Source: Candidatus Woesearchaeota archaeon (GTDB lineage: Archaea > Nanobdellota > Nanobdellia > Woesearchaeales > JAGLGH01). Taken from it: DNA of 53,942 bases. The notes beneath the pieces are model-generated. The model was not told where the DNA came from. It was given only the letters and a program-made list of their open reading frames with translations, and did no database searches. Below are positions 23,697 through 52,171 of the stretch, in pieces. The stretch is taken from the NCBI GenBank assembly GCA_030670545.1, contig DAOVBM010000005.1, positions 1-53,942 of the forward strand, read 5' to 3'. Each line of letters starts with the position of its first letter. Position 1 is the first letter of the stretch. The translations under genes were made by a program, and so were the position numbers.

Positions 23697-24605
23697 ATGG
23701 TTTTTTCAATGAAAAGAATTGATATAAAAGTAGGTTTCTCGTGTAATAATAACTGCTTGTTCTGTGCCCAAGGGCATAAAAAGTCATTTGGTGACAGATC
23801 CACTATAGAAATAGAGAGGGATTTGAGTTCTTCAAAAATAAGATGCGGGGGCGTTGTATTTACTGGAGGTGAATTTACAATAAGAAAAGACGCGTTTGAA
23901 CTTGTATCATATGCCAAAGTGCTGGGTTTCTCTGTGATCCAGATACAATCAAACGGCCGCATGTTCAGTAATAAGGCTTTCTGCAAGAAAATCATAAATT
24001 GCGGTGCAAACCAATTTGCACTTGCTCTTCATGGCCATACCCCAGATATACATGAGAATCTTACAAGAGCAAAAGGAAGTTTTAATCAGACCGTGAGAGG
24101 CATAAAAAACCTTAAAGAACTATCCCAAACTGTCCTTATGAATACAGTAGTCAATCTCCAAAATTACAAGCATCTTCCAGAACTTGCGCACCTTTTTGTT
24201 GATCTTGGGGTGGATCAATTTCAGTTTGCATTTATTCATCCAATAGGAACGGGATATAAATACTTTGATGAAATGGTTCCAAGAATTAGTGATGCTGCGC
24301 CATATATACATCAGGGGCTTCAGATAGGCATTGATGCAGGTATAAGTGTAATGGCAGAAGCAATGCCTTTTTGCCTGATGAATGGATACGAAAAATATGT
24401 TTCTGAATTGAGGATTCCAGTTACAGAAGTAAGTGATGTAGATTCTTATGTTTTAGATTATCTGCAGCAGAAAAAGAACGAAGGCAAAATGAAATTTAAA
24501 AAATGCTTTGCATGCAATTTTAATAAAATATGCGAAGGACCCTGGAAAGAATATCCTGAAAGATTTGGTGACTACGAATTTAATCCTATTAAAAAATCAA
24601 AGTGA
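23697..24605 (+). CDS. Radical SAM protein (HxsC-like group)
   Basis: DIKVGFSCNNNCLFC, FTGGEFT, IQSNGRM, EAMPFC and C-terminal CxxCxxxxxCEGPWKEY...G..EF.P. Confidence 0.9.
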   Translation: MVFSMKRIDIKVGFSCNNNCLFCAQGHKKSFGDRSTIEIERDLSSSKIRCGGVVFTGGEFTIRKDAFELVSYAKVLGFSVIQIQSNGRMFSNKAFCKKIINCGANQFALALHGHTPDIHENLTRAKGSFNQTVRGIKNLKELSQTVLMNTVVNLQNYKHLPELAHLFVDLGVDQFQFAFIHPIGTGYKYFDEMVPRISDAAPYIHQGLQIGIDAGISVMAEAMPFCLMNGYEKYVSELRIPVTEVSDVDSYVLDYLQQKKNEGKMKFKKCFACNFNKICEGPWKEYPERFGDYEFNPIKKSK

Positions 24606-25052
24606 TATAGTGTTTTGTCTGACTATATCAAAAATTTGTAAAAATCTTTTTTCATTAAGTTGCTTAAACCCTAACCTGAGATAATTATTCCTAAATAATT
24701 CTATATTAAAATTCATCCAATCACTGATTATAATATTGCCATTTGAACGATACGCAAAAGATAAGTCTATCCAGTTATAGAGACTTAATGGATTTATAGA
24801 AATCACATTATATCTACATCTAATTTGCTCTTCAAATAAATCGTTCAGATTATAAGCCATTGCCAAAAATTTCCATAAAAACACAGAATCTGGTGATTTT
24901 TGAACACCTTGCAGCCCTAATTTAATTGCTTCTTGAATCATCTTTTCATTTCTATAAAATTTTGCTAAACTATAATCAATATCACTCCTAATACCAATAT
25001 CAAATAATTCTTTTATTTTTTCTTTTATTTGCATTTCATTCATTTTAATCAA
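24597..25052 (-). CDS. TPR-like hypothetical protein
   Basis: TPR-type periodicity (P.S..LW..LA.AY...; INP.S..NW..LS.AY); overlaps the stop of the DUF483 gene, suggesting coupling. Confidence 0.6.
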   Translation of the reverse strand: MIKMNEMQIKEKIKELFDIGIRSDIDYSLAKFYRNEKMIQEAIKLGLQGVQKSPDSVFLWKFLAMAYNLNDLFEEQIRCRYNVISINPLSLYNWIDLSFAYRSNGNIIISDWMNFNIELFRNNYLRLGFKQLNEKRFLQIFDIVRQNTISL

Positions 25053-25986
25053 ATTCTAGCAAAAAACCATCAAATGGTCTTTTCTTTTTAATGGTTTGAA
25101 CCAATTTCTTATCATTATAGATAATAATCTCATCATCTTTTACTTTTATTCTGTTGCCCTGACAGAACTTAATTCTATATTTATCATCCCTCGGATGACC
25201 AATGAATTTAAATTTAGAGTAATGGAGATAACCATTTTTGGTTCTTCCCTCAAAAACATAAGAAATTTTTTCTGCAAAATTAATAATAGGCAATTTTAGT
25301 GCTTTTCTGATTTCATGCGCATACTCAGGTTCTTTTTCCATGATTACTTCTTCTGTCTGTTTAGCAATATCTATGGTCTTTTTACAATTAAACGAACACG
25401 GGTGATGATGAATATATGAATAACCTATATGATTCAGTATGTTGTTGCAGTAATAAGATAATGCACCTTTTGTTTTTTTATAACTCTCGTAGGGTGTAGA
25501 CATGCCAAATTTGTTAAAAGAATTAAAGAATTCGATACAACAATTAGGATAACCTAAAACTTCACCAAATCGAAGATGATCAATAAATGGCTTATCTATA
25601 ACTCTCTTCCGAATAATGAGGGGATACCATCCAAATCTATGAGCATTAAAAATAGATTTCCTGTATCTTGATATAAATACATGAACCATACCTTCTTTTC
25701 TGTTTGGATCAAAGGGCAATCCCTTGAATTTTGTGGTTGTCAGAAATCTTGCGCCAATAGAAGTTGTAAGCTCCTTTTTAGTTGGTTCTACAAACATACA
25801 ATCTGGTTGACATAATAAATTATAGTTTTTACATGCGCTTTTTAGTTTATTATAAGCTTGAATAGGAATCCATGTATCAAATAAAGGCTTTATTCCATAT
25901 ACTGTTCCAATTACTAACGGGAATTGGCCAATTCCTAAATCTGCAAGTTCTTTGCATATGCTTTTGACTGGATAATCATATAACAT
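25045..25986 (-). CDS. DUF483-domain protein (putative metal-binding)
   Basis: GIKP, FGEVLGYPNCCIEFF and HHPCSFNCKKT motifs. Confidence 0.75.
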   Translation of the reverse strand: MLYDYPVKSICKELADLGIGQFPLVIGTVYGIKPLFDTWIPIQAYNKLKSACKNYNLLCQPDCMFVEPTKKELTTSIGARFLTTTKFKGLPFDPNRKEGMVHVFISRYRKSIFNAHRFGWYPLIIRKRVIDKPFIDHLRFGEVLGYPNCCIEFFNSFNKFGMSTPYESYKKTKGALSYYCNNILNHIGYSYIHHHPCSFNCKKTIDIAKQTEEVIMEKEPEYAHEIRKALKLPIINFAEKISYVFEGRTKNGYLHYSKFKFIGHPRDDKYRIKFCQGNRIKVKDDEIIIYNDKKLVQTIKKKRPFDGFLLEFD

Positions 25987-26052
25987 TCAAGAGTTTGGGG
26001 GATTAGAAAGTTATTTAAAGTTTATTATAAATTTTAAGATAGGGGGTTCTTA

Positions 26053-26961
26053 ATGAAAAAAGCAGATATAAAAGTCAGTTTTTCATGCAACAATAATTGT
26101 AAATTTTGCATTGTCGCAGATAAAGGAAGACACAAGAAAAAAACAACTCAGGAAATCATGAGAGATATTGATTCTGCAAAAACATCAGGCATCAATGAGA
26201 TAATATTCACTGGTGGAGAACCGACAATAAGGAAGGATATATTTCAAATCATAGAATATGCAAGCAAAACAGGATTTAACAAGGTAGGAATATATACAAA
26301 TGCCAGAATGTTATCATATCCAGAATTTACATCAAAGCTTGTAAAATGTGGGCTGAACTGGTGCCTTGTTTCATTACATGGCCCTAATGACAATATCCAC
26401 GATTCTCTGACACAAGTAAATGGAAGTTTCAGACAGACAACAAGGGGGATAAAAAACATTGTTGAATCTGGCATTGAAGTGATGAATAATATTACTATTA
26501 CAAAAATAAATTATACTTCTCTTTCTAACATCATAAATCTTATTAAATCTCTTGGAATCAAATATACTAATATGACATTTGTTGATATCATGGGAAATGC
26601 TTTTGAGTTCAGGGAGGATATAGTAGTCAATTACAGAGAACTCCAACCATATCTGATTGATGCAATTGAAACTGCTAAAGGCATTGACTGCTTCAAAGCA
26701 ACTACTGAGAACATACCTTTATGCATCCTTGGAAAGTTCTGGCAATCTGCTCGCGAGAATGATTTTGCCAGAGACAAATGGGTATTTAACGAACCGCAGT
26801 CAAATTCTATTGATTTTAACAAGAGCAGAACAGAATCAAAATTCAAAAAGAAATCCTGCTTATCCTGCAGCTTAAATAACAAATGTGAAGGCATAAGAAA
26901 AATATATGCAAAGATATATGGGGATGAGGAGTTTAAGCCAATCATAAAACAGGTAAATTAG
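26053..26961 (+). CDS. Radical SAM protein (HxsC-like group), paralog of 23697..24605
   Basis: DIKVSFSCNNNCKFC, FTGGEPT, TNARML, ENIPLC and CxxCxxxxxCEG...Y...G.EEFKP. Confidence 0.9.
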   Translation: MKKADIKVSFSCNNNCKFCIVADKGRHKKKTTQEIMRDIDSAKTSGINEIIFTGGEPTIRKDIFQIIEYASKTGFNKVGIYTNARMLSYPEFTSKLVKCGLNWCLVSLHGPNDNIHDSLTQVNGSFRQTTRGIKNIVESGIEVMNNITITKINYTSLSNIINLIKSLGIKYTNMTFVDIMGNAFEFREDIVVNYRELQPYLIDAIETAKGIDCFKATTENIPLCILGKFWQSARENDFARDKWVFNEPQSNSIDFNKSRTESKFKKKSCLSCSLNNKCEGIRKIYAKIYGDEEFKPIIKQVN

Positions 26962-26994
26962 TGAAATTTGAGATTATAGAATATATTAAAAAAA

Positions 26995-27879
26995 ATGGGT
27001 ATAAATAACAATCAAATAAAAGTGCATCAGGATAAGCATGCAGCCAAAGTTAGGAATTATTACATCTTGAGATCCTGCAACAATAATTGTCTTATGTGTG
27101 TTTATGCAAACAAAAGCAATGAGATGATGCATCTTGAGGATATTGCATCTGATCTAAAATCCCTGGATAAGAATACAAAAACAATATATGTATCTGGTGG
27201 AGAACCAACCTTACATCCAGACTTTTTTGAGATATTAAAAAAGGCAAGAGCTAATTTTAATGGCAATATCCATATCCTGACAAATGGAAGAACATTCTCA
27301 ATCAACACATTCATCAAAAAGCTTGATTTGGATATTGGAAATGCTGTGTTTGGTGTGCCTTTTCACTCATCATATCCAAAAGTCTTTGATGAGATTACAC
27401 AAGTGCCGGGCAGTTTCATGCAGACTGTCAAAGGAATCAACAATCTTACATCTGCTGGGCAGTCAGTTGAATTAAGGATAATCATCAATATGTTGAATTA
27501 TTCTATGCTGCCAGAAATTGCATGGTTTATCAGGAAAAATTTTCCTGCTGTTGACAAGGTCTTATTTATATCCATGGATCTCATAGGGAATGCGGCAATT
27601 AATAAGGATATACTTGCAGTCCGTATTTCTAAAACTACGCCATATCTACATAAAGCAATAGACATTCTTGAGGGGCATTTCCAGATATTGCTTAACCAGA
27701 TTCCGTTATGCCTGCTTGACCCAGATTATCATAAGTTTGCGCATAGAGGCACTTTTGTGGAGAGGGAGCATTCATTTTCCAAGTGGTGCAAGAATTGCAT
27801 ACGGAAAAAGGATTGCGGGGGTACATGGAAAAGCTATATATCCTTTTTCGGGAGTGAAGAGTTTAAACCAATAAAATGA
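26995..27879 (+). CDS. Radical SAM protein resembling His-Xaa-Ser system maturase HxsC
   Basis: CNNNCLMC, SGGEPTL, ILTNGR.F, VELRIII...NY..LP.IA.FI..NFP, PLCLL and CxxCxxxxxCGG. Confidence 0.85.
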   Translation: MGINNNQIKVHQDKHAAKVRNYYILRSCNNNCLMCVYANKSNEMMHLEDIASDLKSLDKNTKTIYVSGGEPTLHPDFFEILKKARANFNGNIHILTNGRTFSINTFIKKLDLDIGNAVFGVPFHSSYPKVFDEITQVPGSFMQTVKGINNLTSAGQSVELRIIINMLNYSMLPEIAWFIRKNFPAVDKVLFISMDLIGNAAINKDILAVRISKTTPYLHKAIDILEGHFQILLNQIPLCLLDPDYHKFAHRGTFVEREHSFSKWCKNCIRKKDCGGTWKSYISFFGSEEFKPIK

Positions 27880-30632
27880 ATCTGCCACATGAAATAATAA
27901 TAGAATTAACAAATAACTGCAATTTGGATTGCAGTTTTTGTTTTAATAAACAGGGGACTGATCATATTCACGAAATTTCACAAGAAGATGTTTTTAAGAT
28001 ATTAGGAGATGTTTACAATTCAGGAATAAAGGCAGTAAGATTTACAGGAGGAGAGCCATTCTTAAGAAAAGACTTATGCGAGATACTAAAAAAAGCAAAA
28101 TCTATTGGTTTATATGTAATCCTAAATACTAACGCTTTTTTGATAGATGAAAAAAATAAACATTGTTTTAAATATGTTGATTTAGCTCTTTTTTCTTTGC
28201 ATGATACAGCACGACTTGAAAAAGTAAAAGAAAAGATGAATCTGCTGCAAGATTATAATCTAAAAATAATGCTTTGCACTATCCTGACACAATTGAATAT
28301 AAATAATCTTGAAAATTACTATGATTTCATTTCCAAATTAAATAATAAAAATTTTGTAGAATGGTTCTTATTAAGGCCAATCCCAAATCAGTTTAATAAA
28401 AGGCCAATAACCAAAGAAGACGTTAAAACGGTTCGCGAAAAAATAGTGCAGTATAACAATAAGTATAATTTGGATATTAAGATTGCAAACGCCTTGCCTT
28501 TCTGCGCAATAAATGAAGATTTATCTTCTATCTGCAAAGGAGGGCATTTTGATTCTGGTTACACGCGATTGGTTATAGATTCGAATGGAAACTATAAGGC
28601 AGACTATTTTTCTAATATCTGGGGTAACATCAATGATACTAATATCCTTGATATCTGGAATTCTGATGAAATGAAAGATATTAGGAACTATAATAAAATT
28701 GATAAATTATGTAAGGAGTGTTATCATCTCAAAAAATGCAGGGGTGGCCTGATAGAGGGAGAATATTTGTATGAATTTAAGAATGTTAGTTGCTTGGCAA
28801 GCGTAGTCATCCCTACTTTTAATGATTCTCAAAGATTATCTTTGCTTGTGAAAAGTTTAGAGAATCAGACTATAAATAATTTCGAAGTGATTGTAGTTGA
28901 TGATGGAAGTACTGATGATACTAAAGAAGTTGTGGAAGAACTGAAAAACAAGTCACATCTTTCTATCCAATATTTTTACTTGAATAATACAGATATATTT
29001 GGAGCAGGAATAGCAAGGAATTTTGGAGCAAGAAAGGCAAAAGGAAATGTTTTAATATTTTTAGACCAAGATAATGTAGCGCACCCTAAATTAATTGAAA
29101 ATTACTTAAGGGAACATAAGAAGAAGGATATTATATTAGGATATTATGCGGGTTATGGCAATCAAAAATATTATTATGATATTAATAAACTTAAATCCGC
29201 TGTTAAAAAAAATAAAGTTATCAAAACAAATATCTCTGAGTTTAGAAAGGACATTTTTAACAATCCAAACTTGTACAAAAATCAAGAATGGAAATTTTTT
29301 GTATCTGCAAATTTTTCAATCAAAAGGACATTGTTCCTCAAATTCTTGTTTGATGAGAACATAATTTCATGGGGGGGAGAAGATATTGATTTTGGCTATA
29401 GATTGATTAAAAAAGGATATTCTCTGAATTTCTGTAGAGATTGCTTAACTTATAATAGCTCTGATAAACCTTTCATTAATCAGGGTAAATTTTTCTCTCT
29501 GATGAATGTATTGATTTACCTCTTTGATAAGCATAATAGTGAAGAACTTAAAAAATATTGTTTTGAGAGATTCTATCATACGCCAATAAACTTGAGATCA
29601 GATTCCAAGCTGATTGAAAAAAATAATAAATTAATATTTCGAAAGCCAAATATGAATCCTTTTGACAGAGATGATGTCAACAAAAAAAACAATACAAAAT
29701 CCATAAACACTTTTTGCCCGAAATTGTGGTATGAAGTATATATAGATAAAAATGGCGATGTATATAGCTGCTGCCATAATAAGCCAGCAGTTTTAGGAAA
29801 TATCTACACTAAAAATCTAAAAGAGATTTGCAATAATAATATTATACAAGAACTCCGCAAAAAGTCTTTACAGGGAAGATTAGATTGTTATAAAGATTGC
29901 AGATTGCACCTCGAGAAGGATATCCCTGCAATGGATGGATTTACAATTTCTTACAGCAATCTTAAAAAATTAAAGATATTATTTAGTGAGAAATGCAATA
30001 TCGATTGTATCATGTGTTGGCAGGATAGTAAAAATAATGAACGCATTGATTATAAAAAATTAATAGAAAATGTTGATGTATCCCCTTTTGAAGAGATAGA
30101 GATACAAGGTGGCGAGCCATTATTCATTAAAGAAGCAAAAAAGTATTTTGATTATGTCACTTCGAAAGGGAAAAAAGTATCTTTCCTGACTAATGGATTA
30201 TTAATAAACGAAGTTTGGGCTAAAAAGATTGCCCTTTATTCATCCTGTATCTATTTTTCGTTAAATGCTGCAACAAAGAAAACACATGAATCAATTAACA
30301 GAGGATCAAAATGGGAATCTGTACTTGGGAATATCAAGAAAATCAAGAGGTATATAAATAAGTATAATACTGAAGTTAAGATAATAGGACATATGACAAT
30401 TATAACAGAGAACCTGGATGAGATTCCTTTATTCATCAATAATTTTAAAGAATTTGGATTTGATTCAATCGAATTTGGATACGATAAATCTATGCGTAAT
30501 TACTTGAAAGATTGTTCAAGAAAGAAAATGGAGCTTAAGTCATCTATAAAATCAGCATTAAATCGAGTAGTACATAAATCAAAAATAAACCTGTTTGGCC
30601 TTGAGAGAATAGGCCTTATAACATACACCTAA
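27876..30632 (+). CDS. Fusion: radical SAM + SPASM - GT2 glycosyltransferase - SPASM-like - second radical SAM
   Basis: CNLDCSFC/TGGEP; CKECYHLKKCRGG; SVVIPTFN, VVDDGSTD, ARNFG, FLDQD, WGGEDIDFGYRL; CPKLW...DKNGDVYSCC; CNIDCIMC/QGGEP/LTNG. Confidence 0.9.
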   Translation: MNLPHEIIIELTNNCNLDCSFCFNKQGTDHIHEISQEDVFKILGDVYNSGIKAVRFTGGEPFLRKDLCEILKKAKSIGLYVILNTNAFLIDEKNKHCFKYVDLALFSLHDTARLEKVKEKMNLLQDYNLKIMLCTILTQLNINNLENYYDFISKLNNKNFVEWFLLRPIPNQFNKRPITKEDVKTVREKIVQYNNKYNLDIKIANALPFCAINEDLSSICKGGHFDSGYTRLVIDSNGNYKADYFSNIWGNINDTNILDIWNSDEMKDIRNYNKIDKLCKECYHLKKCRGGLIEGEYLYEFKNVSCLASVVIPTFNDSQRLSLLVKSLENQTINNFEVIVVDDGSTDDTKEVVEELKNKSHLSIQYFYLNNTDIFGAGIARNFGARKAKGNVLIFLDQDNVAHPKLIENYLREHKKKDIILGYYAGYGNQKYYYDINKLKSAVKKNKVIKTNISEFRKDIFNNPNLYKNQEWKFFVSANFSIKRTLFLKFLFDENIISWGGEDIDFGYRLIKKGYSLNFCRDCLTYNSSDKPFINQGKFFSLMNVLIYLFDKHNSEELKKYCFERFYHTPINLRSDSKLIEKNNKLIFRKPNMNPFDRDDVNKKNNTKSINTFCPKLWYEVYIDKNGDVYSCCHNKPAVLGNIYTKNLKEICNNNIIQELRKKSLQGRLDCYKDCRLHLEKDIPAMDGFTISYSNLKKLKILFSEKCNIDCIMCWQDSKNNERIDYKKLIENVDVSPFEEIEIQGGEPLFIKEAKKYFDYVTSKGKKVSFLTNGLLINEVWAKKIALYSSCIYFSLNAATKKTHESINRGSKWESVLGNIKKIKRYINKYNTEVKIIGHMTIITENLDEIPLFINNFKEFGFDSIEFGYDKSMRNYLKDCSRKKMELKSSIKSALNRVVHKSKINLFGLERIGLITYT

Positions 30633-30647
30633 GTTATATAATTCAAA

Positions 30648-32879: not shown

Positions 32880-32889
32880 TATTTTAAAA

Positions 32890-40426: not shown

Positions 40427-40428
40427 GT

Positions 40429-43104: not shown

Positions 43105-43184
43105 TTGAAAAGTAGCTGATTTAAAACCCCCAATCTTAAGAGATGGTGCAAATCTATTTAAAGTTTATTGTATTTAAGATAATT

Positions 43185-44606: not shown

Positions 44607-44653
44607 GTGATTAATTTGGAAATGTTTAAAAACTCTGCAAAGAAATATAAAAG

Positions 44654-45352: not shown

Positions 45353-45522
45353 AAAATAAAAAAACAAGAGGGGTGTGGTTGAAGTATATTTTGTTTATAT
45401 TGCTGCACCTATCCTTCCTGAGTATAGTTTACATCAAATCCCTATTCAATAAGAAATACGAAAACATATTATATTTCTATATGACAAACTTCAAGCGTTG
45501 CCTAAGAAAACTTAATAAATAA
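45349..45522 (+). CDS. Small (57 aa) single-TM protein coupled to the PP-loop gene
   Basis: ATGA overlap; MKNKKTRGVWLKYILFILLHLSFLSIVYIKSLFNKKYENILYFYMTNFKRCLRKLNK*; not in the supplied ORF track. Confidence 0.55.
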   Translation: MKNKKTRGVWLKYILFILLHLSFLSIVYIKSLFNKKYENILYFYMTNFKRCLRKLNK

Positions 45523-45524
45523 AG

Positions 45525-45556
45525 AATTTTGAAAAACCTTAGGTTTTTCTAAAATT
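45525..45556. terminator. Hairpin between convergent genes
   Basis: AATTTT-GAAAAACC-TTA-GGTTTTTC-T-AAAATT. Confidence 0.45.
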
Positions 45557-47441: not shown

Positions 47442-47487
47442 AGCAAATTGTATTTTTGCAGGATATAAAAACTTATCTGAAAACAAA

Positions 47488-48777
47488 ATGTCAAAACAAA
47501 AAATTCTTTTAGTGAACCCCCCTTTTGGAAGGACTGTAATAAGGGAAGGAAGATGCCAGCAGTATACACTTCCTTTCCAAACTACTTACCCTCCATTGAC
47601 ATTAGCAAACCTTGCCGCCATATTGCAAGGTAAGTATGATGTTAAGATATGGGATTGCATAGCATCCAAGACTAATCTAAAGACTTTTTTAGAAAACGCA
47701 AAAAAATGGCGTTCCGAAATTGTTTTTATCAACACATCTACCCCTACAATCAATGCAGATATTGAAACAGCAAGACTGCTTTATAATTCAATATCATTTG
47801 ATAAAGGATTAAAGCTGAAGAGGCCAAAAATATACATGTTTGGAGCGCATGTTTCCTATTTCAAAGGCAAGATTAATGAAGATTTCTTTGAAATTATTAA
47901 AGGCCCGCCTGAAAGTTTTGCATCAAAACTGATAGGAAAGGATTATGATTTTAGTGAATCACCTATTCCTGCATGGGATATGGTTGACCTTAAGAGATAC
48001 AGGATTCCTTTCAAGAACAAGCATTTTGTATTGATAAGACCATCTATTGGTTGTCCTCACAATTGCAGTTTTTGTATAGCTCCTTTTTATTATGGCAGAA
48101 AAATAAGATATAAGAAAGTTACAGATATCATATCAGAAATTAAAAGTGTAAAAGCCATAGGTATCAATGAATTCTTGTTTTTTTCAGAGACATTTACAGT
48201 TAATAAGTCGTATCTAACCAATCTTTTGAATGAGATAATAAAGAATAATCTTAAGATAAGTTTTACGGCAAACTCCAGGATAGATACTATTGATGAGGAT
48301 ATTCTTAAATTGATGAAGAAAGCTGGATGCTGGATGGTCAGCTTTGGCATAGAGTCAGCTTCCCCGAAGATACTTAAACTTGCAGGCAAGTACATTGATC
48401 CTGCTTTAATCAGAAAAAACATCTTACTTGTAAATAAAGCAGGTATCAGAACATTTGGTCATTTCATATTCGGTCTGCCTGGAGAAACCAAAGAGACAAT
48501 TAAGAAAACAATCTCTTTTTCAAAAGAACTTGCTTTGGATTTTGCTGCGTTTTATATAGCTACTCCTTTTCCAGGAAGCATGCTTTATGAATATTCATCC
48601 AGAAAACAGCATTTTGAGAATTATGAATATTCCAGATACAGAAATGATAAGGAGCTTAATCCAGAACTTGATATCAATCTTAAACTCATAAGGATTTACG
48701 CGTACATATCATTTTATCTTAAAAGGATAATGAATCCACTATATACCATAAAGCTAATAAAATTATTTCTGTCTTGA
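47488..48777 (+). CDS. B12-type radical SAM protein (HpnJ-like N-terminus)
   Basis: MSKQKILLVNPP...REGRC...PPLTLA, GAHVS, GCPHNCSFC, ETFT, FGIES and TPFPGS. The real start is likely ATG 47488; the longer ORF merely overlaps the divergent gene. Confidence 0.9.
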   Translation: MSKQKILLVNPPFGRTVIREGRCQQYTLPFQTTYPPLTLANLAAILQGKYDVKIWDCIASKTNLKTFLENAKKWRSEIVFINTSTPTINADIETARLLYNSISFDKGLKLKRPKIYMFGAHVSYFKGKINEDFFEIIKGPPESFASKLIGKDYDFSESPIPAWDMVDLKRYRIPFKNKHFVLIRPSIGCPHNCSFCIAPFYYGRKIRYKKVTDIISEIKSVKAIGINEFLFFSETFTVNKSYLTNLLNEIIKNNLKISFTANSRIDTIDEDILKLMKKAGCWMVSFGIESASPKILKLAGKYIDPALIRKNILLVNKAGIRTFGHFIFGLPGETKETIKKTISFSKELALDFAAFYIATPFPGSMLYEYSSRKQHFENYEYSRYRNDKELNPELDINLKLIRIYAYISFYLKRIMNPLYTIKLIKLFLS

Positions 48778-50472
48778 TTCAACTATGTAATTTCCCATAA
48801 CAAGTTTTCCTTTTCCGGTACGAATCAAGGTATCTATTGCATCCTTTGGACTCATAACAATAGGTTCACCATGGATATTGAAGCTTGTATTAAGGATTGC
48901 GCCGTAACCTGTCACTTTCCTTACTCTCTTCAATATGCCTTTATATGGGCTATTATTGTTGTTTACTATCTGCGGCCTGCATGACCCATCAACACTTGTA
49001 ACTCCTTTAAGATAATCTCTTGCTGAATCTTTAGTCATGTACCCCAGAGTCATAAACCCGCTATCTTGAGTGTACGCTTCGAGCATCTTATTTGCATCAT
49101 CTTCAAGTATAGCAGGACAAAATGGCTGGAACCAATCTCTTCTCTTAATAATATTATTTAGCCTGTTTTTGGTCGTCAGATTATCAGGTAATGCTATAAT
49201 GCTTCTGTTTCCTAGCGCTCTTGGACCATACTCCATCCTGCCTGAAAACCAGTAGACTATATCTCCATCAAGAATGGCATCAGCAGCATATCTGCTGGCA
49301 TTATCATCATAAACAAAATTAATCTTTTTGTTATTCCTGAGTTCTGTGAGTATCAGCTCGTTGCTATATTCAGGTCCAAGGCTTAAGCTTTTAATCATCT
49401 TGCTCCTCCCCCCATAAATCTTATTTGATACAAACAATGCAGCCCCTACAGCAAGCCCCCCATCCCCCATATGTGGAAATATAAACCATTTTCTTATGTC
49501 TGATTTGCTTACTACTTTCATATTATGCTTTATGTTGGATGCTATACCTCCACTGAATACTGCATTATGGATGCCAGTCTCTTTAATCCAGTATTTTGCA
49601 AGATTAATGCAATGATGCTCAAGCGCATCCTGAGCCATCCTGCAGAAAGTTTCCTTATTGCAACTGTACAACAATGCTTGAAGCGTCCTGAATCTCCTTT
49701 CAAGGGGCATTGTTGATTTTATTCTCCCTTCTTCCAGTCTAAAGAATCTGGCCATTGGATTTAATTGTATTGGTATGTGAGGGGAATAATCTGCAAGACT
49801 CATCACTTTCCCCTCATCCTCAAGAATTCTCATTCCAAGAAGGGAAGTTACTTCCTGAAAAAAGAGCCCAAGAGAATCTTTTGACTTTGTCCTTATTAAT
49901 TCTGTTATCTCATCTTTTTCCCCTATGCTAACAGTAGAACTATAACCATCTCCAATCCCGTCAATTGTGAATACCACTGCCTTTTTTATGCCGCTTGGGA
50001 AATATGCACATGCTGCGTGAGCTTTATGATGGTCTATATCATACAATCTGAAATTTTTGAACCCCATCTTCCTTAGCGCATCTTTGATTTTATAATGGGA
50101 TATTTTTCTAAACATGATGTTAGCTCGAAATTTCCCAGTATGATTCAATATCCTTCTGTTAATATTCTCAAAACGTGCCTTTCTTATTCTTCTTCGCACA
50201 TAATAATAATTCTCTTTTATTTTAGGCACAAGCCTTGTTAGTGTCAGTGAAAAGTCTCTAGTGCTGTATGCAATATCCTGTATGTCATCTGGTCTGGAAG
50301 CCATAGCTTTCAGGCAGTATAGTATTGAATTTTTTGGAAATCCTATCTCAAGTTTACGTCGAGTAAACCTTTCTTCGTTTACTGCAACACAGATTCTGCC
50401 TTTATCAACTATACATGCTCCCGAGTCATGCCCATCCCATATGCCTAATATCCTACTCTCAGTTCTCGCCAT
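48763..50472 (-). CDS. Carbamoyltransferase (NodU/CmcH/TobZ family)
   Basis: HDSGAC, EERFTRRK, HHKAHA, DGIGD, EGKVMSLA, GDGG...GAA, EYGPRALGNRS, KRRDWFQPFCP, DGSCRPQ and LNTSFNIHGEPIV. Confidence 0.96.
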   Translation of the reverse strand: MARTESRILGIWDGHDSGACIVDKGRICVAVNEERFTRRKLEIGFPKNSILYCLKAMASRPDDIQDIAYSTRDFSLTLTRLVPKIKENYYYVRRRIRKARFENINRRILNHTGKFRANIMFRKISHYKIKDALRKMGFKNFRLYDIDHHKAHAACAYFPSGIKKAVVFTIDGIGDGYSSTVSIGEKDEITELIRTKSKDSLGLFFQEVTSLLGMRILEDEGKVMSLADYSPHIPIQLNPMARFFRLEEGRIKSTMPLERRFRTLQALLYSCNKETFCRMAQDALEHHCINLAKYWIKETGIHNAVFSGGIASNIKHNMKVVSKSDIRKWFIFPHMGDGGLAVGAALFVSNKIYGGRSKMIKSLSLGPEYSNELILTELRNNKKINFVYDDNASRYAADAILDGDIVYWFSGRMEYGPRALGNRSIIALPDNLTTKNRLNNIIKRRDWFQPFCPAILEDDANKMLEAYTQDSGFMTLGYMTKDSARDYLKGVTSVDGSCRPQIVNNNNSPYKGILKRVRKVTGYGAILNTSFNIHGEPIVMSPKDAIDTLIRTGKGKLVMGNYIVESRQK

Positions 50473-50514
50473 TTTATAGGAAGATTTTTAAATTTATTTT
50501 AATTACATCATAAT

Positions 50515-51450
50515 ATGCAAAAAAGATTTATCATTTCTGCTCTATTTTCGATATTGGTCTATGTATTTATAATATTGTTTTTAGGGATATCAAATATTGT
50601 GCAAACTTTAAAAGATTTTTCTGGGGCATATCTTATTATTGCTATATTATTCATTATCCTAAGCTTGTTTTTTGAATTCATTAGGTGGGAATATTATTTA
50701 AAAGTTGTTGGATTAAGTGTTAATTTTAAAACCAGCATAAAGATTTTCTTTTCCGGACTTGCATTGGGGTTTATGCCTGCAAAATCTGGAGAGCTTCTCA
50801 GGTATTATATGCTTAAGAAAAAAGGGTTATCCTTAAGCAGATCATTGCCTATCCATTTTATCTCAAATTTGACTGCATTTTTTGTAGCGCTCCTATTTTC
50901 ACTACCAATACTTTTCATATTAAAAAAACAAATGATGTTTTATGCCGCTATTGGGCTGCTCTTTATATTTTATTTTTCATTCAGATATCCCTCATTTTAT
51001 CTCAGGATTCTCAAAGTGATTGAAAGCAGACTAAATTATAGCATTTTTAAGCATATAAGGGTGTCATTAGCAACGTCCAGAGGATTGCTTAATCTCAAAT
51101 CTCTTTCCATTTCTTTGCTCCTTACATTTATTTATTATTCCTGTATGGGTGGTGCGCTATTTTATATTCTCAGGGGGTTTGAGATGGGCTCTTCTTTCTT
51201 CCTTGTATTCTCAATATATTCAGCATCATTGATAATAGGTGGCCTGTCAATGCTACCAGGGGGCGTTGGTGCAGTAGAGTATGGGGGCATCGCGTTATTG
51301 TCACAATTTATGGATATCTCTATTGCAACAGTTATTGTAATAATGATGAGGTTTATTTCCCTATGGTTAACTACATTTATTGGAATAGCTTTCCTTAATT
51401 ATTCCTTACCTGAGCTTTCAGTTGATCGAGGTACTCCTTGCAGGAGATAA
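50515..51450 (+). CDS. Lysylphosphatidylglycerol-synthase-TM / UPF0104 flippase-like membrane protein
   Basis: RW..YL, P.KSGELLR, LPGGVGAVE and R..SLW. Confidence 0.88.
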   Translation: MQKRFIISALFSILVYVFIILFLGISNIVQTLKDFSGAYLIIAILFIILSLFFEFIRWEYYLKVVGLSVNFKTSIKIFFSGLALGFMPAKSGELLRYYMLKKKGLSLSRSLPIHFISNLTAFFVALLFSLPILFILKKQMMFYAAIGLLFIFYFSFRYPSFYLRILKVIESRLNYSIFKHIRVSLATSRGLLNLKSLSISLLLTFIYYSCMGGALFYILRGFEMGSSFFLVFSIYSASLIIGGLSMLPGGVGAVEYGGIALLSQFMDISIATVIVIMMRFISLWLTTFIGIAFLNYSLPELSVDRGTPCRR

Positions 51451-52171
51451 TCCTGCGTTCCCTTTTCATTATGCCCTCTAATATACTGAACACTTTTTCT
51501 CCAGAATTGAATCTTTGCAGATATTCTAAAAACCTGTTCTGGCCTTCCTGATAGCTTCCTGCCTGGAGATCATGATCATGCAGACTTAATATCCTCTCTT
51601 TTTTATCTGATGAAAGGAGCCTTTTTGGAATCCACTTATGGAAGATTTTGATAAAAGACATTGTGCAGGGAAATTTGAAGGGTGAAAAGCTTGAGATTGG
51701 GAATTCCATCATAAAATTTCCCTTCTTGGTCAAATCATCTCCCTTAGCTATATATGGTGAGTTTGGAATGCCTCTATAATTAAATCTTGATGGAAAATAT
51801 ACCCTGCATAAGGATGAGTCGTATTCATATCCATATTTATTAAGAGAAGTGAGAATATCTTTGTTTGGCAGGTTATATGGCGCCCGGAATCCAATACAAT
51901 TTATTCCAAGATTTTCAATCTCTTCCTTTGATTTTTTTAATTCATACAATATAATTTTGCTTTCAAGTAGTTTTAGATTTTTATGATTATGAGTATGGGA
52001 TGCAATCTCATGTTTCTCTGCAATCTGTTTTATGAACCTGCCATGCTTTTTAATCTGATCTGTCACCACGAAGAAAGTTGCCTTTGCATTATATTTGTCC
52101 AGAAGCCTCAGTAGTCTTCTTACACCCTGCTCAGTTAAATCAAGGTTTTCTATATCGATTGTTAATATCAT
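51395..52171 (-). CDS. Polysaccharide deacetylase family protein
   Basis: LTIDIE, KATFFV, HEIASHTHNH, GFRAP, YDSSL and LHDHD. Confidence 0.9.
   Translation of the reverse strand: MILTIDIENLDLTEQGVRRLLRLLDKYNAKATFFVVTDQIKKHGRFIKQIAEKHEIASHTHNHKNLKLLESKIILYELKKSKEEIENLGINCIGFRAPYNLPNKDILTSLNKYGYEYDSSLCRVYFPSRFNYRGIPNSPYIAKGDDLTKKGNFMMEFPISSFSPFKFPCTMSFIKIFHKWIPKRLLSSDKKERILSLHDHDLQAGSYQEGQNRFLEYLQRFNSGEKVFSILEGIMKRERRIISCKEYLDQLKAQVRNN

What the first reader, a model, noticed from the sequence alone, without database searches (positions are those of the whole stretch)
23697..52171. 28-kb radical-SAM-saturated glycoconjugate biosynthesis cluster in a probable DPANN archaeon
Seen: 10 intact genes carrying 11 CxxxCxxC domains plus one pseudogene, interleaved with GT2, GT28-like, GT4 and three GT-C-like proteins, a DegT aminotransferase, a carbamoyltransferase, a methyltransferase, a PP-loop ATPase, a deacetylase and a flippase-like protein. 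Known: radical-SAM dehydrogenase plus DegT, B12 methylase, TobZ carbamoyltransferase and deacetylase is the toolkit of aminoglycoside/aminocyclitol and hopanoid-type tailoring, while GT-C plus flippase implies a lipid-linked donor used outside the membrane. Inference: an undescribed pathway builds a heavily modified amino-sugar or cyclitol and attaches it to surface proteins or lipids. I know no characterised pathway with this composition.
Basis: partly seen in the sequence, partly recalled or inferred. Interest (0 to 1): 0.85.

Follow-up and report, generated by a model that had tools for sequence, protein, structure and literature searches.

The report
Radical-SAM-rich archaeal surface glycan gene cassette
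A small-genome archaeon from anoxic sediment carries a conserved 28-kb gene set that packs ten uncharacterised radical SAM enzymes among sugar-building and membrane sugar-transfer genes, probably making an unusual cell-surface sugar by oxygen-free radical chemistry.

Summary
Window 23697-52171 has 10 intact radical SAM (rSAM) genes with 11 CxxxCxxC domains and one rSAM pseudogene. That is 12 of the genome's 32 rSAM matches in 1.9% of its DNA (P about 3.5e-12). They sit among GT2, GT28/GT4, DegT, carbamoyltransferase, methyltransferase, PP-loop, deacetylase and MprF-type flippase-like genes.

The three unnamed membrane proteins have GT-C folds: g10 matches ArnT (Z 18.5) and g09 matches AglB (Z 19.4); g17 is a paralogue of g10.

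It is not a chance aggregate. Most of the gene set, largely in the same order, recurs in 7 other genomes with locus GC of 24-50%. Six belong to four other families of this order, and one genome's kinship was not given.

Fusions (rSAM-GT2-rSAM, DegT-rSAM, and rSAM-GT2-deacetylase in homologues) tie the rSAMs to sugar chemistry.

None of the 10 rSAM proteins reaches any curated family cut-off. Seven literature searches found no description.

Best reading: an Arn/PMT-style pathway for a lipid-linked, heavily tailored amino sugar, delivered outside the membrane by GT-C transferases. Product and acceptor are unknown.

The parts
23697..24605 (+). g01: small radical SAM enzyme, HxsC4-like, no SPASM domain
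   Evidence: PF04055 72 bits. NCBIfam HxsC4 153 bits against a cut-off of 500. CxxxCxxC at residue 16. 59% identical orthologue in same-genus G002.
24597..25986 (-). g02 (24597-25052, 151 aa, no family) and g03 (25045-25986, weak DUF483): not conserved in sister loci
   Evidence: No tblastn hits in the other loci.
26053..27879 (+). g04 (26053-26961) and g05 (26995-27879): two more HxsC-like radical SAM paralogues of g01
   Evidence: PF04055 96.5 and 59.5 bits. g05 scores 201 bits on HxsC against a cut-off of 268. 31-36% identity to g01.
27876..30632 (+). g06: tri-domain fusion of rSAM/SPASM, GT2 glycosyltransferase and twitch/SPASM-rSAM (918 aa)
   Evidence: Pfam Radical_SAM in 2 stretches, Glycos_transf_2 103.9 bits, SPASM in 2 stretches. 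CxxxCxxC at residues 15 and 707. rSAM-GT2 fusions recur in 45 database proteins.
30648..32879 (+). g07: fused GT28-type (MurG/Alg13-like C-domain) and GT4 glycosyltransferase
   Evidence: Glyco_tran_28_C 54 bits and Glycos_transf_1 110 bits. Full-length homologues in G041 (30%) and G166 (40%).
32845..35082 (+). g08: DegT-family PLP sugar aminotransferase fused to a radical SAM/SPASM domain. Its database twin is 730 aa, 15 residues shorter than this ORF, which would put the start at Met16 (about 32890; Met positions)
   Evidence: DegT 268.9 bits, Radical_SAM 83 bits, SPASM 39.6 bits. Only 5 full-length fusion clusters in 5.8 billion proteins. Full-length homologues in G041, G166, G224 and G032.
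35100..35700 (-). Radical SAM pseudogene (truncated, frame-broken, Cys triad lost)
   Evidence: PF04055 31 bits over model positions 74-164 at 35124-35399. Three-frame translation.
35690..37285 (-). g09: 531-aa membrane protein with GT-C fold, shaped like a compact oligosaccharyltransferase
   Evidence: AF2 model pLDDT 79, pTM 0.84. VIA-align: AglB 3waj Z 19.4 (439 aligned, rmsd 4.8), PglB Z 19.2, STT3 Z 18.9; next unrelated chain Z 5.3.
37266..39392 (-). g10: 708-aa membrane protein with GT-C fold (ArnT/PMT-like), from a family Pfam mostly does not cover
   Evidence: AF2 model pLDDT 66.6, pTM 0.68. ArnT 5f15 Z 18.5 (302 aligned, rmsd 3.4). The top 20 rows are all GT-C fold; the next is Z 5.8. 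Asp209 is invariant in alignment A1.
39389..41427 (-). g11 (39389-40450, PTO1314/HpnH-like rSAM) and g12 (40429-41427, rSAM/SPASM, the best-conserved gene of the cassette)
   Evidence: g12 orthologues are 49-63% identical in 4 genomes. The g12 family profile is closest in the PDB to BlsE (57 bits) and SkfB (55 bits).
41375..42079 (-). g13: class I SAM methyltransferase
   Evidence: Methyltransf_23 and Methyltransf_11. Orthologues 41-52% identical in 4 genomes.
42076..43104 (-). g14: PTO1314-like radical SAM enzyme, paralogue of g11 (38%)
   Evidence: Orthologues 47-54% identical in 3 genomes.
43143..44606 (+). g15: B12-binding-domain radical SAM enzyme (class B type)
   Evidence: B12-binding 94.7 bits and Radical_SAM 85 bits. 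BchE 227 bits against 481 and HpnJ 201 against 578.
44654..45352 (+). g16: YcfA-like PP-loop (adenine nucleotide alpha-hydrolase) enzyme with three invariant cysteines
   Evidence: Invariant SGGIDS, C94, C97 and C188 in 7 orthologues. Profile against PDB: YcfA 9kq6, E 1.5e-19. YcfA's function from passages of PMC12494993.
45555..47441 (-). g17: GT-C-fold membrane protein, paralogue of g10 (the ORF is callable up to 47486)
   Evidence: 27% identity to g10, E 3.7e-38. PMT_2 29.9 bits against a cut-off of 26.1 at 46401-46790. Homologues in 7 of 7 sister genomes, next to the carbamoyltransferase in 6.
47488..48777 (+). g18: HpnJ/AprD4-like radical SAM enzyme with no detectable B12-binding Pfam domain (the ORF is callable from 47071)
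   Evidence: PF04055 94.9 bits. HpnJ 149 bits against 578 and AprD4 116 against 500. Start inferred.
48763..50472 (-). g19: NodU/CmcH/TobZ-family O-carbamoyltransferase
   Evidence: Carbam_trans_C 180.7 bits and Carbam_trans_N 119.3 bits. Orthologues 46-57% identical in 7 of 7 sister genomes.
50515..51450 (+). g20: MprF-type 'flippase-like' transmembrane protein
   Evidence: LPG_synthase_TM 119.3 bits. TIGR00374 84.5 bits against 43.2.
51395..52171 (-). g21: NodB-type polysaccharide deacetylase
   Evidence: Polysacc_deac_1 75.7 bits. Weak match to the ArnD deformylase.

Best explanation
This is a conserved, probably horizontally exchanged biosynthetic cassette for a cell-surface glycoconjugate in a small-genome (probably DPANN) archaeon from anoxic sediment. 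It follows the logic of the bacterial Arn (L-Ara4N) and PMT/Gtr pathways, with radical SAM enzymes replacing or extending the usual sugar-tailoring steps.

Proposed course; every step is inferred unless marked otherwise:
1. In the cytoplasm, sugars are tailored while nucleotide-linked or polyprenyl-phosphate-linked.
2. The DegT-rSAM fusion (g08) turns a C-OH into C-NH2 by radical oxidation followed by PLP transamination.
3. The B12-rSAM (g15) and the HpnJ/AprD4-like rSAM (g18) C-methylate, deoxygenate or rearrange the sugar.
4. The small HxsC-like enzymes (g01, g04, g05) and the SPASM/twitch enzymes (g06, g11, g12, g14) perform further radical steps such as epimerisation, oxidation or decarboxylation.
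5. g13 methylates and g19 O-carbamoylates.
6. The YcfA-like PP-loop enzyme g16 adenylates a carbonyl, for example of an N-acetyl or uronate group. This allows replacement by N or S.
7. The GT2 domain of g06 and the GT28/GT4 fusion g07 load and extend the sugar on a lipid carrier.
8. g21 de-N-acetylates the lipid-linked sugar, as ArnD does.
9. g20 flips it across the membrane.
10. Three GT-C transferases (g09, g10, g17) pass the sugars from the lipid donor to an extracytoplasmic acceptor, either a surface protein or a lipid.

Shown here: the domain content, the GT-C folds, the fusions, the conservation and the novelty of the families. Inferred: substrates, order of steps, product and acceptor.
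For: - Density: 12 of the genome's 32 rSAM matches lie in 28.5 kb; P = 3.5e-12.
- Conservation (loci). The run CarbT(g19)-GT-C(g17)-B12-rSAM-PP-loop(g16)-rSAM(g14)-MT(g13)-rSAM/SPASM(g12)-GT-C(g10) keeps its order in G260:C1 (48-63% identity for those that are orthologues of window genes; the B12-rSAM there is 34% identical to g15) and in G224:C1. G166:C78 keeps g21 to g09.
- The left-half genes g08, g07 and g06 recur in G041:C32 (49, 30 and 55%) and G166:C71 (44, 40 and 49%).
- g19 and g17 occur in 7 of 7 sister genomes and are adjacent in 6.
- Locus GC ranges from 0.24 to 0.50, so order is kept across very different genomes.
- Distribution: strong matches to the g10 family (E <= 1e-80) in 7 of 401 genomes of the order including G000, spread over families f1, f31, f53, f67 and f119. 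Not found in same-genus G001 and G002 (86% and 89% complete).
- GT-C folds: g10 matches ArnT at Z 18.5, g09 matches AglB at Z 19.4. In each case 20 or more GT-C chains rank first, then Z drops to about 5-6. g17 scores 29.9 bits on PMT_2, above the cut-off.
- Fusions linking rSAM to sugar enzymes: g06 and g08. Homologues carry rSAM-GT2, rSAM-GT2-PF01522 deacetylase and rSAM-GT2-GT4.
- Sister loci add small GT2 proteins (two families; one has a C-terminal TM segment), PMT_2 GT-Cs above the cut-off, a GT4 and a GalT-like nucleotidyltransferase.
- Arn-like parts: DegT, with ArnB its third-best NCBIfam match at 172 bits (after LegC-family 202 and PseC 195); a deacetylase weakly matching ArnD; a flippase-like protein; and an ArnT-like fold.
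- The genome has two canonical STT3/AglB genes elsewhere, so this cassette is an extra glycosylation system.
- The only strong run holder is a marine sediment metagenome, which may be the DNA's own source. This fits oxygen-sensitive rSAM chemistry.
Against: - There is no biochemical or expression evidence.
- None of the 10 rSAM proteins reaches a curated family cut-off. PDB relatives match only the rSAM core. No individual reaction can therefore be assigned.
- SPASM and HxsC-like rSAMs are best known from peptide maturation.
- No phosphoglycosyl transferase of the PF00953 type was found in the genome, which is 93% complete.
- The window has no stand-alone DPM1/GtrB-like GT2; only the GT2 domain inside g06. 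The lipid-loading step is therefore unproven.
- GGGP synthase is not detected above its cut-off, so the source of any isoprenoid carrier is unclear.
- The GT-C catalytic residues were not verified structurally. g09 shows no WWDYG motif (my reading of its sequence).
- Strand alternation (g15 to g21) is unusual for a single operon.
- The g10 model has only moderate confidence: pLDDT 66.6, with 218 residues below 50.
Confidence: 0.6

Rival explanations
1. Membrane-lipid remodelling cassette. The rSAM enzymes act on isoprenoid lipids or their head groups, for example forming a cyclitol or calditol-like group by HpnJ-type ring contraction, or methylating and cross-linking chains. This would let a lipid-scavenging DPANN cell re-tailor host lipids. 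The GTs, deacetylase and flippase-like protein would build a glycolipid, as in GlcN-phosphatidylglycerol or hopanoid cyclitol ethers.
For: - Weak NCBIfam matches to HpnJ (201 and 149 bits), HpnH (88 bits), HpnR, the 'lipid biosynthesis B12-binding/rSAM' family (144 bits) and Tes (55-71 bits).
- PDB hits to GDGT-MAS 7tol.
- g20 weakly matches the GlcN-PG flippase and g07 the GlcNAc-PG synthase.
- No GGGP synthase above the cut-off in a 93% complete genome, which fits lipid scavenging.
- ArnT, the best fold match of g10, transfers to a lipid.
Against: - All these matches are far below family cut-offs.
- The rSAM domains are fused to a sugar aminotransferase and to GT2, not to lipid enzymes.
- Three GT-Cs plus GT2, GT4 and GT28 imply an oligosaccharide rather than a single head group.
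- This overlaps with the main reading if the acceptor is a lipid.
Confidence: 0.18
2. Biosynthetic cluster for a soluble aminoglycoside- or aminocyclitol-like secondary metabolite. It would use rSAM dehydrogenase plus DegT as in BtrN/BtrS, B12-rSAM methylation as in GenK, AprD4-type deoxygenation and TobZ-type carbamoylation.
For: - DegT, carbamoyltransferase, B12-rSAM and deacetylase are all present.
- AprD4 matches of 114 and 116 bits.
- The GC of the cluster is the lowest of 57 genome windows, as in acquired biosynthetic clusters.
Against: - Three GT-C-fold membrane transferases and a flippase-like protein have no role in making a soluble product.
- AprD4 scores are far below the cut-off of 500.
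- BtrN was not among the PDB hits.
- Pfam found no cyclitol synthase, exporter or resistance gene in the window's cluster.
Confidence: 0.08
3. Peptide (RiPP) or protein maturation system. The SPASM, twitch and HxsC-like rSAM enzymes would cross-link or epimerise a peptide or the neighbouring giant secreted proteins, which the GTs would then glycosylate.
For: - The best-scoring named families for several rSAMs are peptide maturases: HxsC 201 bits, StsB, WgkB and SkfB.
- Three large secreted proteins lie just upstream. They are syntenic with HxsC-like rSAMs in same-genus G002.
Against: - No His-Xaa-Ser repeat peptide in any of the six frames of the window.
- Pfam and NCBIfam found no HxsB, HxsD, protease or ABC exporter in the cluster.
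- All scores are below the cut-offs.
- The giant proteins do not accompany the cassette in 6 of the 7 other genomes; G329 has secreted ORFs of 829 and 672 aa.
- An HxsC-labelled rSAM is itself fused to GT2 in a homologue (P0146).
Confidence: 0.05
4. Chance aggregate of unrelated genes, or an assembly chimera.
For: Alternating strands. g02, g03 and g22 are not conserved.
Against: Gene content and order are kept in 7 other genomes. A sequencing run holds 100% of the sampled words of 37266-47000, though it may be the source sample itself. Enrichment P = 3.5e-12.
Confidence: 0.02

Closest known systems
Arn pathway for L-Ara4N modification of lipid A (ArnB, ArnA, ArnC, ArnD, ArnE/F, ArnT). The pathway outline is recalled from established knowledge.
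   Same: The logic and the part types match: a DegT-family aminotransferase, a GT2 loading step, a NodB-family deacylase acting on the lipid-linked sugar, a flippase, and a GT-C transferase. ArnT is the best fold match of g10 (Z 18.5). ArnB is the third-best NCBIfam match of g08's DegT half at 172 bits, and g21 weakly matches ArnD.
   Different: No equivalog cut-off is met: ArnB 172 bits against 631, ArnD 19.8 against 382. No ArnA or ArnC match was seen. The flippase is MprF-type, not ArnE/F. There are three GT-Cs instead of one and ten rSAM enzymes, which the Arn pathway lacks altogether.
Polyprenyl-phosphate-sugar / GT-C glycosylation systems (PMT protein O-mannosylation, Gtr-type three-component systems, archaeal AglB N-glycosylation). 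Recalled.
   Same: GT-C fold in g09, g10 and g17. g09 superposes on AglB, PglB and STT3, including the C-terminal globular domain (Z 19.4, 19.2 and 18.9; 3vu0 Z 11.9). Sister loci contain small GT2 proteins, one family of which has a C-terminal TM segment, and PMT_2 proteins.
   Different: g09 gives no STT3 Pfam hit and no WWDYG motif was seen. The g10/g17 family is mostly outside Pfam PMT_2: 5 of 46 sampled members hit it. The genome has separate canonical STT3 genes.
Aminoglycoside 2-deoxystreptamine logic: BtrN (rSAM dehydrogenase) plus BtrS/BtrR (DegT-family aminotransferase). Also GenK, AprD4 and TobZ tailoring. Recalled.
   Same: g08 fuses exactly such a pair of activities: an rSAM with an auxiliary-cluster domain plus a DegT aminotransferase. 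A B12-rSAM, an AprD4-like rSAM and a carbamoyltransferase are also present.
   Different: BtrN did not appear in the PDB sequence searches. AprD4 scores 114-116 bits against 500. The membrane GT-C and flippase context is foreign to aminoglycoside clusters.
Hopanoid side-chain tailoring (HpnH, HpnI, HpnK, HpnJ, HpnP/R). Recalled.
   Same: It combines rSAM enzymes, a GT2, a deacetylase and an HpnJ-type rSAM. g15 and g18 have HpnJ among their best named matches, and g11 matches HpnH.
   Different: All scores are well under the cut-offs: HpnJ 201 and 149 against 578, HpnH 88 against 225, HpnR 101 against 650. Archaea are not known to make hopanoids (recalled), and no squalene-hopene cyclase context was seen.
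YcfA of the YcfA-YcfC 6-thioguanine system (PDB 9kq6; PMC12494993, passages read).
   Same: The g16 family profile matches YcfA at E 1.5e-19 over 169 positions. The PP-loop and the E-Q pair that aligns with YcfA Glu134-Gln135 are conserved.
   Different: g16 has three invariant cysteines (C94, C97, C188) where YcfA has none aligned. Pfam annotation of the window's cluster shows no YcfC-like stand-alone PLP C-S lyase. The substrate here is presumably a sugar carbonyl, not guanine.

Membership tests
Radical SAM superfamily (PF04055) | CxxxCxxC cluster motif and a Pfam score over the gathering cut-off | tested here: met
   11 motifs in 10 proteins. All 10 proteins score 59.5-119 bits against the cut-off of 29.5.
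SPASM/twitch subgroup of radical SAM | C-terminal (or N-terminal) auxiliary Fe-S Cys-rich domain, PF13186 over its 21.5-bit cut-off | tested here: met
   g06 61.5 bits (2 stretches), g08 39.6, g12 26.1 and g11 21.5, which is at the cut-off. The g12 family has six further invariant Cys outside the CxxxCxxC stretch.
His-Xaa-Ser system maturase HxsC (TIGR03977) / HxsC4 (NF038332) | Score over the equivalog cut-off | tested here: not met
   g05 scores 201 bits against 267.9. g01 and g04 score 153 and 150 against 500.
His-Xaa-Ser system maturase HxsC (TIGR03977) / HxsC4 (NF038332) | Presence of an HxsA peptide with His-Xaa-Ser repeats | tested here: not met
   No (H.S) repeat in any of the six frames of the window.
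Class B (cobalamin-binding) radical SAM enzymes | N-terminal B12-binding domain (PF02310) plus an rSAM domain | tested here: met
   For g15 only: PF02310 94.7 bits against 32.1, and PF04055 85.3 bits. g18 has no PF02310 hit, although it aligns with g15 over residues 143-563, so g18 is inconclusive.
HpnJ (TIGR03471), HpnH (TIGR03470), AprD4 (NF033070) | Score over the equivalog cut-off | tested here: not met
   HpnJ 200.7 and 149.3 bits against 577.6. HpnH 88.5 against 225. AprD4 114 and 115.7 against 500.
GT-C glycosyltransferase fold | Multi-pass membrane domain that superposes on solved GT-C enzymes well above the background | tested here: met
   g10: ArnT Z 18.5, with 20 GT-C-fold chains at Z >= 8 and the next chain at 5.8. 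g09: AglB Z 19.4, with 24 GT-C rows and the next at 5.3. g17: paralogue of g10 (E 3.7e-38) and PMT_2 29.9 bits against 26.1.
GT-C glycosyltransferase fold | Catalytic acidic residue in the first extracytoplasmic loop | tested here: inconclusive
   Asp209 of g10 (NDEP; DQR in g17) is invariant in the 8-row alignment A1. Its structural equivalence to the catalytic Asp of ArnT or PMT was not checked.
STT3/AglB oligosaccharyltransferase (for g09) | PF02516 match and a WWDYG motif | tested here: not met
   No Pfam family at E <= 0.01. No WWD motif when reading the sequence printed. Canonical STT3 genes lie on contigs C38 and C12.
DegT/DnrJ/EryC1/StrS sugar aminotransferases | PF01041 over its cut-off | tested here: met
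   g08 residues 55-381, 268.9 bits against 19.8. No NCBIfam equivalog is reached: LegC-family 202 bits against 420 and PseC 195 against 423.5.
NodU/CmcH/TobZ carbamoyltransferases | Both Carbam_trans_N and Carbam_trans_C domains over their cut-offs | tested here: met
   119.3 bits against 24 and 180.7 against 27. The NodU equivalog is not met: 91.8 against 1000.
MprF-type flippase-like domain (PF03706 / TIGR00374) | Score over the cut-off | tested here: met
   119.3 bits against 33.4 and 84.5 against 43.2. Flipping activity itself cannot be tested here.
Arn (L-Ara4N) pathway | ArnB, ArnD and ArnT equivalogs present | tested here: not met
   ArnB 172.4 bits against 631. ArnD 19.8 against 382. 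g10 shares only the fold with ArnT, at 12% identity.
YcfA-like PP-loop adenylating enzymes | SGGxDS PP-loop and significant similarity to YcfA | tested here: met
   Invariant SGGIDS. Profile against 9kq6: E 1.5e-19, 73.5 bits. Pfam annotation of the cluster shows no YcfC-like lyase; a dedicated search for one was not made.

The most novel reading that the evidence does not exclude
A previously unrecognised 'radical glycan' pathway. The cassette moves between lineages of small-genome archaea in anoxic sediments. At least ten new radical SAM subfamilies, some fused directly to GT2 or DegT domains, carry out oxygen-independent tailoring on lipid-linked or nucleotide-linked sugars. The steps would include C-methylation, deoxygenation, oxidation coupled to amination, possibly ring contraction to a carbocycle, and amidine or thio substitution via a YcfA-like Fe-S PP-loop enzyme. 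Three GT-C transferases of families outside current Pfam models then install the products on the cell surface. The result would be a glycoconjugate with no characterised counterpart, possibly shaping the cell-cell contact on which DPANN archaea depend.
Probability: 0.3. Interest if true: 0.85.

Novelty: new variant of a known kind. Interest (0 to 1): 0.66.

Why it matters
Radical SAM enzymes acting on carbohydrates are few and mostly known from antibiotic pathways. Here ten uncharacterised ones sit in a conserved glycan cassette, so many candidate sugar reactions could be tested from a single locus.

The fusions give direct experimental handles. The DegT-rSAM fusion predicts NAD-independent conversion of a sugar hydroxyl to an amine. 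The rSAM-GT2-rSAM fusion predicts radical tailoring coupled to glycosyl transfer.

The three GT-C proteins extend that fold into families that Pfam mostly misses.

For DPANN biology, an accessory, exchangeable surface-glycan island would bear on how these episymbionts present themselves to hosts and viruses. It is comparable to O-antigen loci in bacteria.

The rSAM-GT2 architecture also occurs in proteins whose source records name Omnitrophica (48% identity), Moraniibacteriota (a CPR lineage, 36% over about a third of the query) and Bacteroidota (29% over about a quarter). The chemistry may therefore be widespread among anaerobes.

Tried and rejected
- Rfam found no RNA family in the window.
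- A sequence profile of the g10 family against the PDB gave only chance-level hits. Foldseek on the g10 model gave no match at E <= 0.001, although ArnT ranked first at E 0.02. The exhaustive VIA-align search was needed.
- Pfam on the 8 g10-family members: 1 of 8 hit PMT_2.
- The metagenome-contig scan with A2 matched 587 pattern stretches but none was a relative.
- Single-sequence PDB searches with the g08 rSAM half, g12 and g14, and the g12 family profile, found only remote rSAM-core matches: SkfB, BlsE, MoaA, viperin and GDGT-MAS. BtrN was not listed, so the BtrN analogy rests on logic alone.
- No His-Xaa-Ser peptide was found.
- The look-up of sequencing runs listed no RNA holder, so expression could not be examined.
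- The idea that the giant upstream secreted proteins are the acceptors was not pursued. They accompany rSAM genes only in same-genus G002. They are missing from the fetched loci of six of the other cassette-bearing genomes; G329 has secreted ORFs of 829 and 672 aa.
- The organism label 'uncultured Methanosarcinales archaeon' on the records behind L019 and L020 was considered and rejected as a guide to taxonomy. G000 has no MCR alpha match at 93% completeness. L020's genome (G042, the same contig as G260:C1, 41,251 bases, with the g10 homologue at the same coordinates) lies in G000's own order. At least 136 families were sampled from that order, and the listed genomes are 0.6-2.1 Mb.
- rSAM counts per relative genome are first-look candidate numbers, not confirmed matches, because I set E <= 1e-30 to limit output.
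- Literature: seven full-text searches found no paper describing this cluster type. An eighth located the paper behind PDB entry 9kq6. Subscription journals are not covered, and supplements were closed and not requested. The supplementary phylogeny of PMC12494993 might bear on where g16 falls among YcfA relatives.

Full report
**1. What is there**

The window is archaeal. It encodes ABCE1/RLI at 277-2034 and endonuclease dU at 4886-5455. It lies on contig C82 of a 1.48-Mb genome in 88 contigs, 93% complete.

ORF calling and Pfam give 21 genes plus one pseudogene between 23697 and 52171. Ten ORFs carry Radical_SAM domains above the cut-off:
- g01 23697-24605
- g04 26053-26961
- g05 26995-27879
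- g06 27876-30632, with two rSAM domains
- g08 32845-35082
- g11 39389-40450
- g12 40429-41427
- g14 42076-43104
- g15 43143-44606
- g18 47071-48777

They hold 11 CxxxCxxC motifs. A frame-broken rSAM remnant lies at 35100-35700 on the minus strand.

The genome-wide six-frame search finds 32 rSAM matches. Twelve are in this 28.5-kb stretch, where 0.62 are expected (Poisson P = 3.5e-12).

- a GT2 domain inside g06;
- a GT28-C/GT4 fusion (g07);
- DegT fused to rSAM/SPASM (g08);
- a methyltransferase (g13);
- a PP-loop protein (g16);
- a carbamoyltransferase (g19);
- an MprF-type flippase-like protein (g20; TIGR00374 above its cut-off);
- a polysaccharide deacetylase (g21);
- three polytopic membrane proteins with no Pfam hit (g09, g10, g17).

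The apparent 416-bp overlap of g17 and g18 disappears with the starts indicated by homologue alignments.

**2. The membrane proteins are GT-C glycosyltransferases**

The g10 protein has only 7 word-sharing relatives among 5.8 billion proteins. One of them carries PMT_2.

An AlphaFold2 model of the g10 protein (pLDDT 66.6, pTM 0.68) was aligned to 48,161 PDB representatives.
- ArnT came first: Z 18.5, rmsd 3.4 Å, 302 residues aligned.
- It was followed by ALG12, ALG9, AglB, STT3, PMT, AftD and others.
- The first 20 rows all have the GT-C fold. The next row has Z 5.8.

The g09 model (pLDDT 79, pTM 0.84) matches as follows.
- AglB Z 19.4 (439 aligned), PglB Z 19.2 and STT3 Z 18.9.
- The matches include the C-terminal globular domain (3vu0, Z 11.9, rmsd 2.8 Å).
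- The next unrelated row has Z 5.3.

g09 lacks an STT3 Pfam match, and I saw no WWDYG motif. The genome has two canonical STT3 genes elsewhere.

The g17 protein is a paralogue of the g10 protein (27% identity, E 3.7e-38). It reaches PMT_2 at 29.9 bits, above the 26.1 cut-off, in the six-frame search.

An exhaustive profile search finds 463 representatives of the g10/g17 family at E <= 0.001 in 1.84 billion proteins, and 112 at E <= 1e-30. Of 46 sampled members, only 5 hit PMT_2 and none hit any other Pfam family. This is a GT-C family that Pfam largely does not cover.

**3. The cluster is conserved**

A pattern scan of species-representative genomes with the g10 family found two loci. Searches of 401 genomes of the same order and 401 of the phylum found more.
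- Strong matches (E <= 1e-80) occur in 7 of 401 order genomes including G000: G032, G156 and G224 (family f31), G166 (f53), G260 (f119) and G329 (f67).
- The phylum sample added none outside the order.
- The two same-genus genomes G001 and G002 (86% and 89% complete) have no match.

After fetching flanks I mapped every window protein by tblastn.
- G260:C1 keeps deAc-flippase-CarbT-GT-C(g17)-B12-rSAM-PP-loop-rSAM(g14)-MT-rSAM/SPASM(g12)-GT-C(g10) in the window's order. The orthologues of window genes are 38-63% identical; the B12-rSAM there is 34% identical to g15.
- G166:C78 keeps g21, g20, g16, g15, g14, g13, g12, g11, g10 and g09.
- G224:C1 keeps g08, g19, g17, B12-rSAM, g16, g14, g13, g12 and g10.
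- G041:C32 holds g13, g12, g10 and g09, and further on g19, g17, B12-rSAM, g08, g07 and g06.
- G166:C71 holds g19, g17, g08, g07, g06 and g01.

Homologues of g19 and g17 occur in 7 of 7 sister genomes and are directly adjacent in 6. Other window genes recur as follows:

| Gene | Sister genomes with a homologue (of 7) |
|---|---|
| g16 | 6 |
| g10 | 6 |
| g09 | 5 |
| g12 | 4 |
| g13 | 4 |
| full-length DegT-rSAM fusion (g08) | 4 |

These loci have GC from 0.24 to 0.50. In G000 the cluster (GC 0.326) is the lowest of 57 genome windows; the genome mean is 0.367. Patchy distribution, absence from congeners and deviant composition point to an accessory island exchanged within the order.

g02, g03 and g22 are not conserved.

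**4. Why sugars**

The rSAM domains are covalently fused to carbohydrate enzymes.
- g06 is rSAM/SPASM-GT2-twitch/rSAM, and g08 is DegT-rSAM/SPASM.
- The full-length DegT-rSAM fusion is rare: 5 clusters, including the window's own.
- rSAM-GT2 fusions are recurrent: 45 proteins at E <= 1e-20.
- Their source labels include Nanoarchaeota (51% identity), Woesearchaeota (47%), Aenigmatarchaeota (43%) and Omnitrophica (48%). Weaker matches over a third or less of the query come from Moraniibacteriota and Bacteroidota.
- Variants are further fused to a PF01522 deacetylase, to GT4 or to a B12-binding domain. One HxsC-labelled rSAM is fused to GT2.
- Genes shared among the sister loci but absent from the window are also glycan genes. 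They are small GT2 proteins of two families (one with a C-terminal TM segment), two PMT_2 GT-Cs above the cut-off, a GT4 and a GalT-like nucleotidyltransferase.

The non-radical parts reproduce the Arn/PMT scheme: a DegT aminotransferase, GT2, a NodB-type deacylase, a flippase and GT-C.

**5. What cannot be assigned**

None of the 10 rSAM proteins reaches a curated NCBIfam cut-off. The nearest labels are:

| Gene(s) | Nearest label | Score vs cut-off (bits) |
|---|---|---|
| g05 | HxsC | 201 vs 268 |
| g01, g04 | HxsC4 | about 150 vs 500 |
| g11, g14 | PTO1314 family | 144 and 112 vs 306 |
| g15 | BchE | 227 vs 481 |
| g15 | HpnJ | 201 vs 578 |
| g18 | HpnJ | 149 vs 578 |
| g18 | AprD4 | 116 vs 500 |

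PDB sequence searches match only the rSAM core of SkfB, BlsE, MoaA, viperin and GDGT-MAS.

Within the cluster the rSAMs form paralogue groups: g01/g04/g05, g11/g14 and g15/g18.

g16 is the one accessory protein that gained a clearer reading.
- Its 7 orthologues keep SGGIDS and three cysteines (C94, C97, C188).
- The family profile matches YcfA (9kq6) at E 1.5e-19.
- YcfA is the PP-loop enzyme that adenylates the guanine C6 carbonyl and adds cysteine in 6-thioguanine synthesis (PMC12494993, passages read).
- I infer that g16 activates a carbonyl for replacement by N or S.

**6. Mechanism proposed**

The course is inferred; see Best explanation for the steps. In outline:
- Cytoplasmic radical tailoring of nucleotide-linked or lipid-linked sugars.
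- Amination by g08, then methylation, carbamoylation and carbonyl substitution.
- Loading and extension on a polyprenyl phosphate by GT2, GT28 and GT4.
- De-N-acetylation by g21 and flipping by g20.
- Transfer by three GT-Cs to a surface acceptor.

I put this at 0.6. The rivals are:
- lipid head-group or lipid remodelling, 0.18 (it overlaps the main reading if the acceptor is a lipid);
- a soluble aminoglycoside-like metabolite, 0.08;
- peptide or protein maturation, 0.05;
- a chance aggregate, 0.02.

**7. Organism**

Evidence that fits a DPANN archaeon:
- Small genome.
- No MCR alpha.
- No GGGP synthase above its cut-off, whereas all four control archaea match that family.
- An order from which at least 136 families were sampled, with listed genomes of 0.6-2.1 Mb.
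- Nearest labelled homologues of g06 from Nanoarchaeota and Woesearchaeota.

No marker phylogeny was made. Two records of cassette-bearing genomes, one of them (L020's) in G000's own order, carry the label 'uncultured Methanosarcinales archaeon', which I regard as unreliable.

The only strong DNA holder is a marine sediment metagenome, possibly the source sample.

**8. Novelty and score**

The overall scheme, a surface-glycan locus with a lipid-linked donor and GT-C, is a known kind. The saturation with uncharacterised radical SAM enzymes, their fusions to GT2 and DegT, the YcfA-like PP-loop enzyme and the Pfam-orphan GT-C families make it a new variant.

Seven literature searches found no description. 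This covers open-access text only, without supplements.

Interest is 0.66. The locus is conserved, enzymologically rich and testable, but its function rests wholly on inference.

Noticed in passing
window 12401-23574 (-): Three large secreted proteins lie directly upstream of the cluster: 1890 aa with bacterial TSP3 repeats, 688 aa and 1069 aa. Each has an N-terminal hydrophobic segment. They are syntenic (55, 47 and 42% identity) with HxsC-like rSAM genes in same-genus G002:C100. They may be surface proteins and possible acceptors, but they do not travel with the cassette in 6 of the 7 other genomes.
   Followed up: partly
L017 (G001:C393:2294-9497): Same-genus genome G001 has seven HxsC4-like radical SAM genes in an array on one 12-kb contig, next to a B12-rSAM. 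G001 has the highest first-look rSAM candidate count (71) of the 41 genomes.
   Followed up: no
L030, L031, L011, L012 (G032:C3:14000-58000): G032 carries a larger version, about 44 kb. It has about a dozen B12-type or HpnJ-like rSAM genes, two carbamoyltransferases, several DegT genes, two g10/g17-family GT-Cs and a DegT-rSAM fusion. The cassette appears to be modular and expandable.
   Followed up: partly
L019 and L020 record titles: The public records behind these loci are labelled 'uncultured Methanosarcinales archaeon'. Yet L020's genome belongs to G000's order, and G000 lacks MCR alpha. The order has at least 136 sampled families, and its listed genomes are 0.6-2.1 Mb. The label is probably a taxonomy-mapping error.
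   Followed up: partly
G000:C33:13015-20031: A second, smaller group of three radical SAM genes lies on another contig of the same genome.
   Followed up: no
window 5836-6285 (+): An IS200-like (Y1 transposase) gene lies about 17 kb upstream of the cluster. A same-sized ORF on the opposite strand (5818-6264) is probably spurious.
   Followed up: no
window 7270-8175 (-): A fusion of a MazE/AbrB-type antitoxin domain with a PhoU domain (301 aa), next to an Lrp/AsnC regulator at 8317-8775.
   Followed up: no
G166:C71:2401-4047: The six-frame search reports 8 in-frame stops in the g17 homologue of G166, whereas tblastn gave one long alignment. It may be a decaying copy or a frame artefact.
   Followed up: no
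window 44654-45352 and alignment A4: The PP-loop protein family has three invariant cysteines (C94, C97, C188). From memory, their spacing recalls the [4Fe-4S] site of TtuA/TtcA-type sulfurtransferases. YcfA, the closest solved relative, lacks them.
   Followed up: partly
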